Virus record (IMG/VR): IMGVR_UViG_2558860290_000019 | DNA length: 8,089 bases | Direction: 5' to 3' (one strand) | Source: a virus | Taxonomy: Duplodnaviria > Heunggongvirae > Uroviricota > Caudoviricetes | Shown here: in pieces, positions 1 to 8,089 of the stretch | Layout: each line of letters begins with the position of its first letter | How positions within the stretch are numbered: position 1 is the stretch's first letter | Translations under genes and position numbers: made by a program | Notes under the pieces: model-generated | What the model was told of the DNA's origin: nothing | The model's input: the letters and a program-made list of their open reading frames with translations, nothing else | The model's database searches: none

Positions 1-1152
1 TTATTTAAGAGTTCTTCCTATATTTATGCTTTTTTTCTCTATGGTTATATGCATGAGATATGCAAGAGTTGTAACAATAGAGAACGCAGCTATCAATGAT
101 ACTAGATAGCTAAAACCAGATCCAGTTAGGAATCTGATTATGCAATACCCTATCACTGAGTGGAGAGCATAAAAAGAATAACTTATATTTGCAAGAAATG
201 AGAGTGGTCTTACCTCTTTAAAGTAATCATTTAATAACATTGCGATTAAAAATACAATATAACCATAAATATAGTTTACTCCAACCTCAATAAATTGGTT
301 GCTCTGTGGGCCGCATTTCCACGTCATTCCTACAAGGATAGCTGTCATCATTGTTGAAGCTATGAACTCGCCTGTATTAATTCGCTTTTCAAAATAAAAG
401 TTAAGCAGAATACCAAGAGTCATATATGAAATGTACATGAATTCTATCTTTAACGCATCGAAAGAAAAGAATCCCTGCTGACTTGAGCCAAGCCCTAAGT
501 TTGCTGTAAAAAATGTAATGGCGAATACAGATATTGGGATGCATAATAACTTTATTATATTTGCACTTCTTATTGCCCCATATACCAAAAGACAAGTTAT
601 ATAGAATTTTATCTCTATAGATAGGGTCCAGTTTACATAATCAATGCTTCCATAGTTGAATATAGATGCAAGCAATGTAATATTGTATATAAAACGATCC
701 ATTGAGATACTATTTGCAGAACCCCAAAAGATGTTGCTTGCGGTAAATACTGCAAGCATTATAAGAGAACATACTATGTATGTAGGGTATATTCTTATTA
801 TCCTTGCAAATAGGTAACCAAGTGGAGACTTGTTTCTCATTGAATATGTTAAAACAAACCCGCTAATTATGAAGAATATAGATACCCCAAACGGACCATA
901 ATTAAAATATGGTAAAGGAGGAAGTATTGATATGTAATAAGCTGAATTTCCAGTGCTCACGTCAGGAGCGCCGGTCACAGAGCTGATGAATGTAGGATTT
1001 AGTGAGTATATGCCAAGCCAGTGGACTGCAACTACACTCAAAAAAGCTATAGCCCTTAACTGTGAAGCGAAGATGACTCTGCCTTTCTTTTTTGTATCCA
1101 CCACTTCATGGATGGCATTGCTTTGAATGCCATCCTGCGCTTGTTGCGCCAT
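1..1152 (-). CDS. Acyltransferase family 3 (OafA/Oac-like) integral membrane protein; AT-rich cargo gene at the P2 Z/fun-equivalent slot
   Basis: Complete minus-strand ORF (stop TAA at 1..3). Two in-frame ATGs: 1170 has no Shine-Dalgarno, while the ATG at 1152 (Met7) is preceded by AAGAGG (1159..1164) with a 6-nt spacer, so 1152 is preferred (383 aa; 389 aa from 1170). The protein is very hydrophobic with multiple predicted membrane segments and carries Acyl_transf_3-type motifs: LRAIAFLSVVAVH (Arg...His in the first helix), GVSIFFIISGF, ARIIRIYPTY and NWTLSIEIKFY (compare the WSLSVE motif). The gene is far more AT-rich than the tail genes and is divergent from FI. Confidence 0.8.
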   Translation of the reverse strand: MAQQAQDGIQSNAIHEVVDTKKKGRVIFASQLRAIAFLSVVAVHWLGIYSLNPTFISSVTGAPDVSTGNSAYYISILPPLPYFNYGPFGVSIFFIISGFVLTYSMRNKSPLGYLFARIIRIYPTYIVCSLIMLAVFTASNIFWGSANSISMDRFIYNITLLASIFNYGSIDYVNWTLSIEIKFYITCLLVYGAIRSANIIKLLCIPISVFAITFFTANLGLGSSQQGFFSFDALKIEFMYISYMTLGILLNFYFEKRINTGEFIASTMMTAILVGMTWKCGPQSNQFIEVGVNYIYGYIVFLIAMLLNDYFKEVRPLSFLANISYSFYALHSVIGYCIIRFLTGSGFSYLVSLIAAFSIVTTLAYLMHITIEKKSINIGRTLK

Positions 1153-1256
1153 TTCTAACCTCTTTTCCATTTAAAATTTAATCTAAGTAGAGAAAAAACA
1201 AAATGGGATTATTCATCATTGTTGATTAAAGATAAAGAGGGTATGTACAAAACTAA

Positions 1257-2686: not shown

Positions 2687-3205
2687 ATGGCAATGCCGCG
2701 CAAACTCAAGTTAATGAACGTCTTTCTGAACGGCTACAGCTATCAGGGCGTTGCAAAGTCCGTCACGCTGCCAAAACTGACCCGTAAGCTCGAAAACTAT
2801 CGCGGTGCGGGGATGAACGGCAGCGCACCGGTGGACCTCGGCCTTGATGACGATGCGCTGTCAATGGAGTGGTCGCTCGGGGGCTTCCCGGATTCGGTTA
2901 TCTGGGAGCTTTACGCCGCAACCGGTGTGGATGCTGTGCCGATTCGTTTTGCAGGCTCTTACCAGCGTGACGATACCGGCGAAACGGTGGCCGTCGAGGT
3001 GGTCATGCGTGGACGTCAGAAAGAAATCGACACCGGCGAGGGTAAACAGGGAGAAGACACCGAGTCGAAAATCTCCGTGGTCTGCACCTATTTCCGGCTG
3101 ACGATGGACGGTAAGGAGCTGGTCGAAATCGACACCATCAACATGATTGAGAAGGTGAACGGCGTCGACCGGCTGGAGCAACACCGCCGCAATATCGGCC
3201 TGTGA
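2687..3205 (+). CDS. FII: Tail tube protein (P2 gpFII family)
   Basis: 172-codon ORF with GGAG (2675..2678) 8 nt upstream of the ATG. Size and position match P2 gpFII (172 aa as I recall). Confidence 0.93.
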   Translation: MAMPRKLKLMNVFLNGYSYQGVAKSVTLPKLTRKLENYRGAGMNGSAPVDLGLDDDALSMEWSLGGFPDSVIWELYAATGVDAVPIRFAGSYQRDDTGETVAVEVVMRGRQKEIDTGEGKQGEDTESKISVVCTYFRLTMDGKELVEIDTINMIEKVNGVDRLEQHRRNIGL

Positions 3206-3261: not shown

Positions 3262-3537
3262 ATGAACAAAGAAAATGTGATTACCCTGGACAATCCGGTC
3301 AAACGTGGTGAGCAGGTTATCGAACAGGTCACGCTGATGAAACCCAATGCGGGGACGCTGCGCGGTGTCAGTCTGGCTGCGGTCGCAAACTCCGAAGTCG
3401 ATGCACTGATTAAAGTGCTGCCGCGCATGACGGCACCGATGCTGACCGAGCAGGAAGTCGCCGCGCTGGAACTGCCTGACCTTGTGGCGCTGGCCGGTAA
3501 GGTGGTCGGTTTTTTGTCGCCGAACTCGGTGCAGTGA
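3262..3537 (+). CDS. E: Tail assembly chaperone (P2 gpE family)
   Basis: 91-codon ORF (MNKENVITLDNPVKRGEQVIEQV ... GFLSPNSVQ). Size and position match P2 gpE. A TTTTTTG run lies near its 3' end. Confidence 0.9.
   Translation: MNKENVITLDNPVKRGEQVIEQVTLMKPNAGTLRGVSLAAVANSEVDALIKVLPRMTAPMLTEQEVAALELPDLVALAGKVVGFLSPNSVQ
3510..3516 (+). promoter_or_regulatory. Slippery heptamer T_TTT_TTG in the E frame; candidate programmed frameshift site for E+E'
   Basis: In the E frame the codons are GGT TTT TTG, giving the X_XXY_YYZ pattern. Programmed -1 frameshifting at TTTTTTG to make gpE+E' is the established P2 mechanism. See the findings for the frame anomaly in this sequence. Confidence 0.55.
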
Positions 3538-3691
3538 CGTTTCCAAAAAAATACTCTCGGTCGATGACCTGATGGCGGATGTGGCAGTGGTATTTCACTG
3601 GCCGCCATCAGAACTGTATCCCATGAGCCTGACCGAACTCATCACATGGCGCGAAAAGGCGCTCCGGCGAAGTGGAAACACGAATGAGTAA
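3515..3691 (+). CDS. E': E' reading frame (C-terminal extension of gpE, expressed only as an E+E' frameshift fusion); in this sequence it lies in the +1 phase relative to E
   Basis: Open frame with no convincing own start, overlapping the 3' end of E and ending at TAA 3689..3691, which overlaps the T start. C-terminal part reads LSVDDLMADVAVVFHWPPSELYPMSLTELITWREKALRRSGNTNE. The 5' boundary is nominal, because the true fusion point depends on the shift site. Confidence 0.6.
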   Translation, partial: CRRTRCSDVSKKILSVDDLMADVAVVFHWPPSELYPMSLTELITWREKALRRSGNTNE

Positions 3692-6132
3692 CAATGTAAA
3701 ATTACAGGTATTGCTCAGGGCTGTTGACCAGGCATCCCGCCCGTTTAAATCCATCCGCACAGCGAGTAAGTCGCTGTCGGGGGATATCCGGGAAACACAA
3801 AAATCACTGCGCGAGCTGAACGGTCAGGCATCCCGTATTGAGGGATTTCGCAAGACCAGTGCACAGCTCGCCGTGACTGGTCATGCACTTGAAAAGGCAC
3901 GGCAGGAGGCCGAAGCCCTTGCCACACAGTTTAAAAACACCGAACGTCCGACACGTGCTCAGGCGAAAGTGCTGGAATCCGCAAAGCGTGCGGCGGAGGA
4001 CTTACAGGCGAAATATAACCGCCTGACGGATTCCGTTAAACGCCAGCAGCGGGAACTGGCCGTTGTGGGAATTAATACCCGCAATCTTGCACATGATGAG
4101 CAGGGACTGAAAAACCGTATCAGTGAAACCACCGCACAGCTTAACCGTCAGCGTGACGCGCTGGCGCGTGTCAGTGCGCAACAGGCAAAACTTAACGCAG
4201 TAAAACAGCGTTATCAGGCAGGCAAGGAACTGGCCGGAAATATGGCCTCAGTGGGCGCTGCCGGTGTGGGGATTGCGGCGGCGGGAGCGATGGCCGGAGT
4301 TAAGTTGCTGATGCCCGGTTATGAGTTTGCGCAGAAAAACTCAGAATTGCAGGCCGTGCTCGGAGTGGCAAAAGACTCCGCCGAAATGACCGCACTACGC
4401 AAACAGGCGCGCCAGCTCGGCGACAATACCGCCGCTTCGGCGGATGATGCGGCCGGTGCACAGATAATCATCGCGAAAGCGGGTGGGGATGTTGATGCCA
4501 TTCAGGCGGCAACGCCGGTCACGCTGAATATGGCGCTGGCGAACCGCCGCACGATGGAAGAAAACGCCGCCCTGCTGATGGGGATGAAATCCGCCTTTCA
4601 GCTTTCAAACGATAAGGTCGCTCATATCGGGGATGTTCTCTCCATGACGATGAACAAAACCGCCGCCGATTTTGACGGCATGAGCGATGCGCTGACCTAT
4701 GCCGCACCTGTAGACAAAAAATGCCGGTGTCAGCATTGAAGAAACCGCCGCAATGGTCGGGGCGCTGCATGATGCAAAAATCACAGGCTCAATGGCGGGG
4801 ACGGGAAGCCGTGCCGTGTTAAGCCGCCTGCAGGCACCGACGGGAAAAGCATGGGATGCACTCAAAGAGCTTGGTGTGAAAACCTCAGACAGCAAGGGAA
4901 ACACCCGGCCAATATTTACCATTCTGAAAGAAATGCAGGCCAGTTTTGAGAAAAACCGGCTCGGTACTGCCCAGCAGGCTGAATACATGAAAACTATTTT
5001 CGGGGAGGAGGCCAGCTCAGCCGCCGCCGTGCTGATGACTGCCGCCTCAACCGGAAAGCTGGACAAACTGACCGCTGCGTTTAAAGCCTCAGACGGGAAG
5101 ACTGCCGAGCTGGTAAATATCATGCAGGACAACCTCGGCGGTGACTTTAAGGAGTTTCAGTCCGCTTATGAGGCGGTGGGGACTGACCTGTTTGACCAGC
5201 AGGAAGGCGCACTGCGTAAGCTCACACAGACGGCCACAAAGTATGTGTTAAAACTCGACGGCTGGATACAGAAAAACAAATCACTGGCGTCAACCATTGG
5301 CATCATTGCCGGTGGCGCGCTGGCGCTTATTGGCATCATCGGTGCCATTGGTCTTGTAGCCTGGCCGGTTATCACCGGCATCAATGCCATTATCGCGGCA
5401 GCAGGCGCAATGGGGGCAATCTTCACGACGGTTGGCAGTGCTGTTATGACGGCCATCGGGGCGATTAGCTGGCCGGTTGTGGCTGTGGTGGCCGCCATTG
5501 TCGCCGGGGCGTTGCTTATCCGTAAATACTGGGAGCCTGTCAGCGCATTCTTCGGCGGTGTGGTTGAAGGGCTGAAAGCAGCATTTGCGCCGGTGGGGGA
5601 ACTGTTCACGCCACTTAAGCCGGTGTTTGACTGGCTGGGTGAAAAGTTACAGGCCGCGTGGCAGTGGTTTAAAAACCTGATTGCCCCGGTCAAAGCCACC
5701 CAGGACACCCTGAACCGTTGCCGTGATACTGGCGTCATGTTCGGGCAGGCACTGGCTGACGCGCTGATGCTGCCGCTTAATGCGTTCAACAAACTGCGCA
5801 GCGGAATTGACTGGGTACTGGAAAAACTCGGTGTTATCAACAAAGAGTCAGACACACTTGACCAGACCGCCGCCAGAACTCAAGCCGCCACGAATGGCAG
5901 CGGTGGTTATATTCCGGCGACCAGCTCTTATGCAGGCTATCAGGCTTATCAGCCGGTCACGGCACCGGCTGGCCGCTCTTATGTGGACCAGAGTAAAAAC
6001 GAATATCACATCAGCCTGACCGGTGGTACTGCGCCGGGGACACAGCTTGACCGCCAGTTACAGGATGCGCTCGAAAAATACGAGCGGGATAAACGTGCGC
6101 GCGCCCGTGCCAGCATGATGCATGACGGTTAA
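3684..6132 (+). pseudogene. T: Tail tape measure protein (P2 gpT family), interrupted by a frameshift in an A6 run (4716..4721); possibly a homopolymer sequencing error
   Basis: N-terminal ORF from ATG 3684 (MSNNVKLQVLLRAV; the track's GTG at 3672 is less likely) ends DKKCRCQH with TGA at 4737..4739. The +1 frame is open from 4714 and reads TKNAGVSIEETAAMVGALHDAKITGSMAG through to TAA 6130..6132. Removing one A gives a continuous AAPVDKNAGVSIEE junction and an 815-codon ORF, which matches my recollection of P2 gpT length. The N-terminus is coiled-coil-like (Q/R/A-rich) and the centre has glycine-rich hydrophobic segments (GIIAGGALALIGIIGAIG), both typical of tape measure proteins. Confidence 0.8.
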
Positions 6133-6146
6133 GGAGGTGACGAAAA

Positions 6147-6626
6147 ATGATGCTCGCGTTAGGTATGTTTGTTTTTATGCGCCAGACGCTGCCACACCAG
6201 ACCATGCAGCGTGAATCAGATTATCGCTGGCCGTCAAATTCCCGTATCGGTAAACGGGATGCCTTTCAGTTTCTCGGTGTGGGTGAGGAAAACATCACGC
6301 TTGCCGGTGTGCTTTATCCAGAACTGACCGGCGGCAAGCTGACGATGACCACGCTCAGGCTGATGGCAGAGGAAGGCCGGGCGTGGCCGTTGCTGGATGG
6401 CACCGGCATGATTTACGGCATGTATGTCATCAGCAGGGTGAGTGAAACAGGGAGTATTTTCTTTGCAGACGGCACACCCCGGAAAATTGATTTTACGCTG
6501 TCGCTCACCCGCGTTGATGAATCACTGGCCGCGCTTTATGGCGATATCGGTAAACAGGCGGAATCGCTCATCGGTAAGGCTGGCAGTATGGCGACCAGAT
6601 TCACGGGTATGACGGGGGCGGGATAA
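6147..6626 (+). CDS. U: Tail protein gpU (P2 gpU family)
   Basis: 159-codon ORF with AGGAGG (6132..6137) 9 nt upstream of the ATG. Size and position match P2 gpU. Confidence 0.88.
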   Translation: MMLALGMFVFMRQTLPHQTMQRESDYRWPSNSRIGKRDAFQFLGVGEENITLAGVLYPELTGGKLTMTTLRLMAEEGRAWPLLDGTGMIYGMYVISRVSETGSIFFADGTPRKIDFTLSLTRVDESLAALYGDIGKQAESLIGKAGSMATRFTGMTGAG

Positions 6627-7789
6627 TGCTGGATGCGCTGACATTTGATGCAGGCAGTACACTGACGCCGGATTATATGCTGATGCTCGACAGCAGGGAT
6701 ATTACCGGCAATATCAGCGACCGTCTGATGAGCATGACCCTGACGGATAACCGGGGCTTTGAGGCTGACCAGCTTGATATTGAACTGAATGATGCCGACG
6801 GGCAGGTCGGGCTGCCGGTTCGTGGCGCTGTCCTGACGGTGTATATCGGCTGGAAAGGTTTTGCCCTGGTATGCAAAGGGAAATTTACCGTTGATGAGGT
6901 CGAACACCGGGGCGCGCCGGATGTGGTCACCATCCGCGCCCGGAGTGCAGATTTTCGCGGGACGCTCAATTCCCGCCGTGAAGGCTCCTGGCATGACACC
7001 ACGCTCGGTGCGATTGTTGAGGCGATAGCCTCCCGTAACAGGCTGGAAGCCAGTGTCGCGCCGTCACTGGCAGGAATTAAAATCCCGCACATCGACCAGT
7101 CGCAGGAGTCCGACGCGAAATTCCTGACCCGTCTTGCAGAACGCAACGGCGGTGAGGTGTCGGTAAAAATGGGAAAACTGTTGTTTCTCAAAGCGGGGCA
7201 GGGGGTGACGGCCAGTGGTAAAAAAATCCCGCAGGTCACCATAACCCGCAGCGACGGCGACCGCCATCATTTTGCGATTGCTGACCGTGGAGCCTATACC
7301 GGCGTAACGGCAAAGTGGTTACACACCAAAGACCCGAAGCCGCAAAAGCAGAAGGTAAAACTGAAACGCAAAAAGAAAGAGAAACACCTGCGCGCACTGG
7401 AGCACCCGAAAGCGAAACCGGTCAGGCAGAAGAAAGCGCCTAAAGTACCGGAAGCGCGCGAAGGTGAATACATGGCCGGTGAGGCTGACAACGTTTTTGC
7501 CCTGACCACGGTATATGCCACAAAAGCGCAGGCCATGCGCGCCGCTCAGGCGAAGTGGGATAAACTGCAACGGGGCGTTGCGGAGTTCTCCATCAGCCTG
7601 GCTACCGGTCGGGCAGATATTTACACGGAAACACCGGTCAAAGTGTCTGGCTTTAAGCGCGTCATAGACGAGCAGGACTGGACAATCACTAAGGTGACAC
7701 ACTTTCTGAATAATTCCGGCTTCACGACGTCCTTAGAGCTTGAGGTCAGGCTTTCTGATGTGGAGTACGAAACAGAAGATGATGAGTGA
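6626..7789 (+). CDS. D: Tail protein gpD (P2 late control gene D family, baseplate hub-like)
   Basis: 387-codon ORF whose ATG overlaps the U stop (TAATG, 6624..6628), suggesting translational coupling. Size and position match P2 gpD. Contains a lysine-rich low-complexity segment (7325..7468). Confidence 0.88.
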   Translation: MLDALTFDAGSTLTPDYMLMLDSRDITGNISDRLMSMTLTDNRGFEADQLDIELNDADGQVGLPVRGAVLTVYIGWKGFALVCKGKFTVDEVEHRGAPDVVTIRARSADFRGTLNSRREGSWHDTTLGAIVEAIASRNRLEASVAPSLAGIKIPHIDQSQESDAKFLTRLAERNGGEVSVKMGKLLFLKAGQGVTASGKKIPQVTITRSDGDRHHFAIADRGAYTGVTAKWLHTKDPKPQKQKVKLKRKKKEKHLRALEHPKAKPVRQKKAPKVPEAREGEYMAGEADNVFALTTVYATKAQAMRAAQAKWDKLQRGVAEFSISLATGRADIYTETPVKVSGFKRVIDEQDWTITKVTHFLNNSGFTTSLELEVRLSDVEYETEDDE

Positions 7790-7807: not shown

Positions 7808-7836
7808 TTGTTTTATAAGGATAAATTAACTAAAAT
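7808..7836 (+). promoter_or_regulatory. Candidate sigma70 promoter for ogr: -35 TTGTTT (7808..7813), 17-nt spacer, -10 TAAAAT (7831..7836)
   Basis: Hexamers and spacing read directly from the AT-rich D-ogr intergenic region. The predicted start site at about 7843 would give a roughly 28-nt leader containing AAGAGG (7857..7862). Confidence 0.35.
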
Positions 7837-7870
7837 GGCACCATCAACAAAACCGGAAGAGGTGCTCGCG

Positions 7871-8089
7871 ATGTTTCATTGTCCTTTATGCCAGCATGCC
7901 GCACATGCGCGTACAAGTCGCTATATCACTGACACGACAAAAGAGCGTTATCACCAGTGCCAGAACGTGAATTGCAGCGCCACGTTCATCACTTATGAGT
8001 CGGTACAGCGATACATCGTGAAGCCGGGAGAAGTCCACGCCGTAAGACCGCACCCGTTGCCGTCAGGGCAGCAAATTATGTGGATGTAA
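7871..8089 (+). CDS. ogr: Ogr, zinc-finger transcriptional activator of late genes (Ogr/Delta family)
   Basis: 72-codon ORF MFHCPLCQHAAHARTSRYITDTTKERYHQCQNVNCSATF..., with the Cys-x2-Cys ... Cys-x4-Cys zinc-binding pattern. AAGAGG lies 8 nt upstream of ATG 7871. The track's longer ORF from TTG 7808 is rejected because it lacks an RBS and would run through the promoter-like region. The stop TAA is at 8087..8089, the window edge. Confidence 0.9.
   Translation: MFHCPLCQHAAHARTSRYITDTTKERYHQCQNVNCSATFITYESVQRYIVKPGEVHAVRPHPLPSGQQIMWM

What the first reader, a model, noticed from the sequence alone, without database searches (positions are those of the whole stretch)
4701..4760. Tape measure gene T is split by a +1 frameshift at an A6 homopolymer
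The T reading frame from 3684 terminates at TGA 4737..4739 (peptide ...AAPVDKKCRCQH), while the +1 frame is open from 4714 and carries the rest of a typical tape measure protein to 6132. The two frames overlap only across the A6 run at 4716..4721. Reading it as A5 gives a seamless AAPVDKNAGVSIEETAAMVG junction and an 815-codon gene. Either the prophage has a genuine inactivating slipped-strand mutation in an essential tail gene (a defective prophage that still keeps its cargo gene and ogr), or this is a homopolymer sequencing or assembly error. Tape measure genes are not known to use programmed frameshifting.
Basis: seen in the sequence. Interest (0 to 1): 0.55.

Follow-up and report, generated by a model that had tools for sequence, protein, structure and literature searches.

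The report
Broken tape-measure gene, probably sequencing error
The P2-type prophage tail-length gene T really is split in this record, but the extra base lies next to the A6 run rather than in it, and the most likely cause is an error in the sequence record or, failing that, an ordinary private mutation.

Summary
The frame break is real. Gene T reads from 3684 to TGA 4737-4739, and its remainder runs in the +1 frame from 4714 to 6132. P2, L-413C, four near-identical E. coli and metagenome contigs and at least 120 IMG/VR contigs also carry A6 here, and they read in frame as GTG GCA AAA AAT (V-A-K-N). An A5 version of that 30-mer was found nowhere. The window instead has GG changed to AGA at 4712-4714, which is one insertion plus one substitution just 5' of the run.

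An E. coli draft contig (GCA_012623565.1) is identical to the window over all 8089 bases except at this site and one other. The second site, at 3551-3553, changes A6 to A7 and TC to TAC (+2 nt). That truncates gpE+E', the frameshift-made tail chaperone. Both lesions are complex, both add A, both lie beside an A6 run, and both are absent from every collection searched.

Two such lesions with no ordinary substitution in 8 kb fit consensus or sequencing error best (about 0.78). Private inactivating mutations in a defective prophage are the main rival (about 0.17). Programmed recoding is effectively excluded. This is an ordinary finding of low interest.

The parts
3684..4739 (+). 5' fragment of tape measure gene T (351 aa, ends ...AAPVDKKCRCQH, then TGA)
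   Evidence: Pfam PF10145 matches aa 239-343, profile positions 1-106 of 201.
4712..4714 (+). The lesion itself: wild-type GT-GGC has become GTAGAC (one inserted A plus G->A). It also creates TAG 4711-4713 in the downstream frame.
   Evidence: Alignments to P2 and L-413C, to L004 and to six more distant Peduoviridae.
4716..4721 (+). A6 run. It has the same length as in intact relatives (codons AAA AAT, Lys-Asn), so it is not the site of the indel.
   Evidence: The wild-type 30-mer with A6 is in at least 120 IMG/VR contigs. The A5 version has 0 matches.
4714..6132 (+). 3' part of gene T in the +1 frame. The first possible start codon is ATG 4753 (459 aa).
   Evidence: PF10145 profile positions 121-201 match aa 2-84 of the 459-aa ORF.
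3545..3553 (+). Second lesion, in E': wild-type CCAAAAAATCTC has become CCAAAAAAATACTC (A6->A7 and TC->TAC, +2 nt). It truncates gpE+E' at 104 aa.
3262..3537 (+). Gene E (tail assembly chaperone, 91 aa), intact, with the -1 slip site TTTTTTG at 3510-3516.
3517..3691 (+). E' extension, reached by the conserved -1 programmed frameshift. Here it is broken into two frames by the +2 lesion.
1..1170 (-). Cargo gene: acyltransferase family 3 (389 aa) in the position of P2 fun(Z).

Best explanation
The split of gene T is an error in this sequence record, either a base-calling, consensus or polishing artefact beside a homopolymer. In the real DNA, gene T (815 codons) and E' are most likely intact and read ...CCT GTG GCA AAA AAT GCC..., as in every relative.

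Shown: the record carries two complex, A-adding lesions, each beside an A6 run, on a background otherwise identical to an intact prophage. Inferred: the lesions arose during sequencing or assembly rather than in the cell.
For: 1. The window equals E. coli draft contig AASXGZ010000021.1 (L004) at every one of 8089 positions except two clusters, 3551-3553 and 4712-4714. There are no ordinary substitutions.
2. Both clusters are complex, with two changes within 3 nt. Both create extra A's and both touch an A6 run. Only 2.4% of window positions lie within 5 nt of a run of 6 or more, so two random hits would both land there about 6e-4 of the time.
3. Neither mutant 31-mer occurs in the representative genomes or in IMG/VR, and the T one is also absent from JGI metagenomes. 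None of 1346 E. coli RefSeq records matches the 95-nt region better than 97.9%. Neither truncated product is on record among 153 billion gene calls. No protein in the large protein database ends in VDKKCRCQH.
4. Same-base insertions near, but not adjacent to, a homopolymer are a described sequencing error class, the carry-forward error (PMC3764156). Site 1 on the + strand (A7-T-[A]-C) and site 2 on the - strand (T6-G-[T]-C-T) both have that shape.
5. Frameshifted fragments of T from other assemblies are common in the protein database, for example P0002, P0003, P0004, P0006 and P0007.
6. From established knowledge of E. coli mutation spectra, substitutions outnumber indels roughly ten to one. 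Two complex indels with no substitution is therefore an unlikely product of real divergence.
Against: No reads or quality values are available, so this is inference from pattern only. The sequencing platform of the record is unknown. Site 2 needs a substitution as well as an insertion, which is not a textbook single carry-forward event. Ten other runs of 6 or more bases in the window are error-free. Prophages do decay, and real frameshifts in tail genes are common.
Confidence: 0.78

Rival explanations
1. Both lesions are real, private mutations, and the prophage is tail-defective. gpT would be cut in the middle of its PF10145 domain, and gpE+E' would be truncated. No tails could be assembled, while the acyltransferase cargo gene, ogr and the other tail genes remain intact.
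For: The frame breaks are unambiguous in the record. The T break falls at profile position about 106 of 201 of PF10145. Real inactivation of this operon occurs elsewhere, for example an IS21-family insertion in strain CUVET16-819 (H104). Both T and E+E' are annotated as essential tail proteins in P2.
Against: There are no substitutions in the other 8084 positions relative to L004. Both events are complex and homopolymer-adjacent, which is unusual for spontaneous mutation. No selective reason is known for hitting two tail genes. The alleles are seen in no other assembly.
Confidence: 0.17
2. The lesions are real but leaky. Lys-tRNA slippage on the A runs would restore some full-length product. 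For T this needs a +1 or -2 shift on A6 at 4716-4721. For E' it needs a -1 shift on the newly created in-frame A_AAA_AAA heptamer at 3545-3551. The prophage would then still make a few tails by compensatory, not programmed, frameshifting.
For: The 23-nt frame overlap at 4714-4736 contains the A6 run. In the E' frame the A7 run forms a perfect X_XXY_YYZ heptamer, and a -1 slip there gives ...FPKKILSVDDLM..., rejoining the wild-type E' sequence. Low-level compensatory frameshifting at indels is documented in other systems (PMC5009743).
Against: There is no conservation at all, since every relative is in frame. The A run is not even conserved as a run in more distant relatives, which have GCG AAA AAT, AAG ACG or AAA GAT. 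No stimulatory element was identified. T needs a +1 or -2 shift, which A6 supports only weakly (established knowledge). E+E' would need two successive rare shifts. This rival also requires that the lesions be real.
Confidence: 0.04
3. One reading: slipped-strand expansion of the homopolymer from A5 to A6, whether as a real mutation or as a sequencing error.
For: Deleting one A restores an 815-codon ORF.
Against: Intact relatives have A6. The A5 30-mer is absent from IMG/VR. The alignments place the extra base and a G->A change at 4712-4714. The A5 repair gives Asp344 instead of the Ala344 seen in all eight sequences compared.
Confidence: 0.01

Closest known systems
Bacteriophage P2 gene T (gpT, tail length tape measure protein; AF063097 19850-22297) and L-413C gpT
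   Same: Same operon order, FI-FII-E/E'-T-U-D-ogr. The 701-nt region around the break is 97.6-99.1% identical in DNA. PF10145 is present. The repaired product is 815 aa and differs from P2 gpT at 14 residues.
   Different: The window copy carries GG->AGA at 4712-4714, which splits the ORF into 351-aa and 459-aa pieces.
E. coli draft genome GCA_012623565.1, contig AASXGZ010000021.1 (prophage next to yegQ)
   Same: Identical to the window at all positions outside the two lesions, including the acyltransferase cargo gene.
   Different: It has an intact 815-aa T and an intact E'. It lacks the 3 extra bases.
Homopolymer-associated sequencing or consensus errors (over-calls and carry-forward insertions of flow-based chemistries; indel errors in long-read consensus)
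   Same: Insertions of the same base as a neighbouring run of 6 or more, located near but not always inside the run (PMC3764156).
   Different: The platform of this record is unknown. Site 2 also contains a substitution.
Programmed -1 frameshift of the tail chaperone genes (P2 E/E', lambda G/GT)
   Same: It lies in the same operon, immediately upstream of T. The T TTT TTG slip site at 3510-3516 is intact in the window.
   Different: That event is conserved across long-tailed phages and yields two products. The T break is private to this record and needs the opposite direction of shift.

Membership tests
Phage tape measure protein, P2 gpT type (PF10145 PhageMin_Tail) | Significant match to PF10145 | tested here: met
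   In the intact relative, E = 2.4e-45 over aa 239-440. The two window fragments match profile positions 1-106 and 121-201.
Phage tape measure protein, P2 gpT type (PF10145 PhageMin_Tail) | Position directly downstream of the frameshifted chaperone pair E/E' and upstream of U, D | tested here: met
Phage tape measure protein, P2 gpT type (PF10145 PhageMin_Tail) | A single continuous ORF of about 815 codons, since the ruler function needs one polypeptide | tested here: not met
   The ORF is split at 4737-4739 in this record. It is intact in L003-L006, P2 and L-413C.
Programmed ribosomal frameshift (recoding) site | The frame discontinuity is conserved in relatives | tested here: not met
   All relatives are in frame. 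The mutant 31-mer has 0 matches in three collections.
Programmed ribosomal frameshift (recoding) site | A slippery motif suited to the required shift, plus a stimulatory element | tested here: inconclusive
   A6 could allow a +1 or -2 slip of Lys-tRNA, but C_AAA_AAA in this frame is a -1-type context, and a -1 shift does not restore T. No stimulator was sought.
Slipped-strand (homopolymer length) frameshift or contingency locus | Run length differs from that of intact alleles | tested here: not met
   A6 is present both in the window and in intact relatives. The A5 version was never found.
Sequencing or assembly artefact | Disagreement with raw reads or an independent resequencing | not testable with these tools
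   No reads are available. The pattern evidence only supports it.
Defective (cryptic) prophage | Inactivating lesions in essential genes that are verified in the DNA, with loss of phage production | not testable with these tools
   Two frame breaks in essential tail genes are present in the record. Whether they are real, and the phenotype, could not be tested.

The most novel reading that the evidence does not exclude
Both lesions are real, and the lysogen still assembles some tails. Ribosomes would slip on the A runs: +1 or -2 on A6 in T, and -1 on the new in-frame A_AAA_AAA in E', which comes after the normal -1 shift at T_TTT_TTG. That would be an example of compensatory frameshifting rescuing a tape measure gene and a doubly frameshifted chaperone.
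Probability: 0.03. Interest if true: 0.5.

Novelty: not a real feature. Interest (0 to 1): 0.08.

Why it matters
It matters little for biology. For annotation, gene T and E' in this record should be flagged as frameshifted or suspect, and the prophage should not be called defective on this evidence alone.

The case also shows a general trap. A frame break lying next to a homopolymer was attributed to a change in run length, yet comparison with relatives shows the run is unchanged and the lesion is adjacent to it.

If the lesions were real, the prophage would be a tail-less P2 remnant that still keeps a probable O-antigen-modifying acyltransferase. That is a common outcome of prophage domestication.

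Tried and rejected
1. A5 as the ancestral state was rejected.
2. I looked for the source record or any second carrier of either lesion, and all searches were negative: E. coli RefSeq complete genomes, phage records, the representative genomes, IMG/VR, JGI metagenomes (T lesion only), exact-product look-ups of both T fragments, and a protein search with the frameshifted tail.
3. Template-switch or quasi-palindrome copying from elsewhere in the window was considered. No second copy of the mutant 7-8-mers GTAGACA, TAGACAAA or ATACTCT exists, and AAATACTC occurs once on the minus strand at 6459 with no extended match. This was rejected as unsupported.
4. An E-E'-T fusion through the combined +2 and +1 insertions was checked. 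Frame 0 has stops before 3672, so it was rejected.
5. A prfB-like +1 shift at CAT TGA was considered. The P-site His codon cannot re-pair in the +1 frame, so it was rejected by reasoning and not tested.
6. Dam or Dcm motif-linked long-read errors were considered. There is no GATC or CCWGG at either site in the sequence.

Full report
**What the window is**

The window is the late tail operon of a P2-type (Peduovirus) prophage.
- An acyltransferase cargo gene lies at 1-1170 on the minus strand.
- The tail genes follow on the plus strand: FI 1484-2674, FII 2687-3205, E 3262-3537 with its E' extension, T from 3684, U 6147-6626, D 6626-7789, and ogr at the end.
- Identity to P2 and L-413C is about 97% over the tail genes.

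**Checking the observation**

The frame break is real.
- The reading frame from ATG 3684 ends at TGA 4737-4739 with ...AAPVDKKCRCQH.
- The +1 frame is open from 4714, after TAG 4711-4713, and encodes the rest of T to 6132.
- A6 lies at 4716-4721.
- Deleting one A gives an 815-codon ORF.
- The frames overlap over 4714-4736 rather than only across the A run.

**Where the lesion actually is**

Alignment with P2 and L-413C shows that both also carry A6 here. They read CCT GTG GCA AAA AAT GCC (P-V-A-K-N-A) in frame. The window reads CCT GTA GAC AAA AAA TGC C. The difference is therefore GG -> AGA at 4712-4714, one inserted A plus one G->A change, located 2-4 nt upstream of an unchanged run.

Several further results agree.
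- The wild-type 30-mer with A6 occurs in at least 120 IMG/VR contigs.
- The same 30-mer with A5 occurs in none.
- Six more distant Peduoviridae (BIS20, MDG45, ST147-VIM1phi7.1, PsP3, Wphi, EtG) are all in frame, with no base at the window's extra column.
- In those six, Ala344 is invariant, and the run is not conserved as a run: GCG AAA AAT, AAG ACG and AAA GAT all occur.

The A5 repair would also produce Asp where all relatives have Ala.

**Nearest relative and a second lesion**

The exact acyltransferase protein is encoded on seven public contigs, and in those that reach T the gene is an intact 815 aa. One of them, E. coli draft GCA_012623565.1 contig AASXGZ010000021.1 (L004), is identical to the window over all 8089 bases except two clusters.
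- The first cluster is the T lesion described above.
- The second is at 3551-3553, where wild-type CCAAAAAATCTC has become CCAAAAAAATACTC (A6 -> A7 and TC -> TAC, +2 nt).

The second cluster lies in E', the extension reached by the conserved -1 programmed frameshift at TTTTTTG (3510-3516). It truncates gpE+E' to 104 aa (...FPKKYSRSMT*) instead of 142 aa. Gene E itself is intact. P2 annotates both T and E+E' as essential tail proteins. The review PMC5009743 summarises the chaperone and tape-measure mechanism.

**Is either lesion seen elsewhere?**

Neither is.
- No E. coli RefSeq complete genome among 1346 matching records exceeds 97.9% identity over the 95-nt region, which corresponds to the two differences.
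- The best full-window identity in that set is 97.8%.
- The T mutant 31-mer is absent from the representative genomes, IMG/VR and JGI metagenomes, and the E' mutant 31-mer is absent from the first two.
- The truncated products are not on record.
- No protein in the large database ends with the frameshifted tail.

That last search did turn up several other frameshifted T fragments from other assemblies. One of them, P0002, reads VAKMPGS, as a shortened A run would give. Broken T calls are therefore commonplace.

**Consequence if the lesions are real**

The T break falls in the middle of the PF10145 domain. That domain spans aa 239-440 of the intact protein, and the break is at profile position about 106 of 201. 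A tape measure split into 351-aa and 459-aa pieces is not expected to work. That expectation rests on established knowledge that the ruler protein spans the tail as one chain.

**Interpretation**

The record differs from an intact twin by exactly two events. Both are complex, with two changes within 3 nt. Both add A's and both abut an A6 run. Only 2.4% of the window lies within 5 nt of a run of 6 or more, so both landing there by chance has a probability of about 6e-4. There is no ordinary substitution in the remaining 8084 positions.

From established knowledge, real divergence in E. coli is dominated by substitutions, and real homopolymer indels are simple changes of one base in the run. By contrast, same-base insertions near but not adjacent to a homopolymer are a described class of sequencing error (PMC3764156). 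Site 1 read on the plus strand and site 2 read on the minus strand both have that shape.

I therefore rate a consensus or sequencing artefact at about 0.78. Real private inactivating mutations in a tail-defective prophage get about 0.17. A leaky, translationally compensated version of the latter gets about 0.04.

The compensated scenario rests on two facts. The T overlap contains A6. The E' lesion creates a perfect in-frame A_AAA_AAA heptamer at 3545-3551, and a -1 slip there would rejoin the E' frame as ...FPKKILSVDD.... Nothing is conserved, however, so this cannot be programmed recoding.

**What was rejected**
- A5 -> A6 slippage.
- Local template-switch copying.
- An E-E'-T fusion, because frame 0 has stops before 3672.
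- A prfB-like shift at the stop codon.
- Methylation-motif long-read errors, since there is no GATC or CCWGG at either site.

**Verdict**

The frame break is correctly observed, but its mechanism was mis-assigned. It is most probably not a biological feature, and if real it is an ordinary prophage pseudogene. Only reads or resequencing can settle which.

Noticed in passing
window 3545-3553: A second frame-breaking lesion relative to the otherwise identical contig L004: A6->A7 plus TC->TAC (+2 nt) in E'. It truncates gpE+E' to 104 aa. It also creates an in-frame A_AAA_AAA heptamer whose -1 slip would restore the E' frame.
   Followed up: yes
window 1-1170 (minus strand): The cargo gene is a 389-aa family-3 acyltransferase (PF01757) in the slot that holds fun(Z) in P2 and a different hypothetical gene in L-413C. 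It is probably a lysogenic-conversion gene, possibly for O-antigen acylation. The identical protein is found on 7 public contigs.
   Followed up: partly
P0002, P0003, P0004, P0006, P0007: Other public assemblies contain short T fragments frameshifted at different points within 30 codons of this site. P0002 reads VAKMPGS, as a shortened A run would give. Broken T genes are therefore frequent in assemblies.
   Followed up: partly
NZ_CP150989.1 (H104): In E. coli CUVET16-819 the same tail operon is interrupted by an IS21-family element (ISEc12 istA/istB). This is a clear case of real prophage inactivation.
   Followed up: no
NZ_CP083887.1 (H36/H101): A P2-type tail operon sits on a 43-kb record of strain NDM2 that is separate from the chromosome, and the chromosome carries another copy. 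It may be an excised or circular phage genome assembled as a separate replicon.
   Followed up: no
window 7808-8089: The ogr ORF is open upstream to TTG 7808 (93 aa). Relatives annotate 72 aa (P2, L004) or 84 aa (L003), so start-codon annotation is inconsistent.
   Followed up: no
L004 1-3085: In the nearest relative the prophage abuts yegQ (peptidase U32), a DUF1508 gene and a two-component system gene pair (sensor kinase and response regulator). In L003 and L005 the equivalent end abuts pflB and focA. The same phage type therefore sits at different attachment sites.
   Followed up: no
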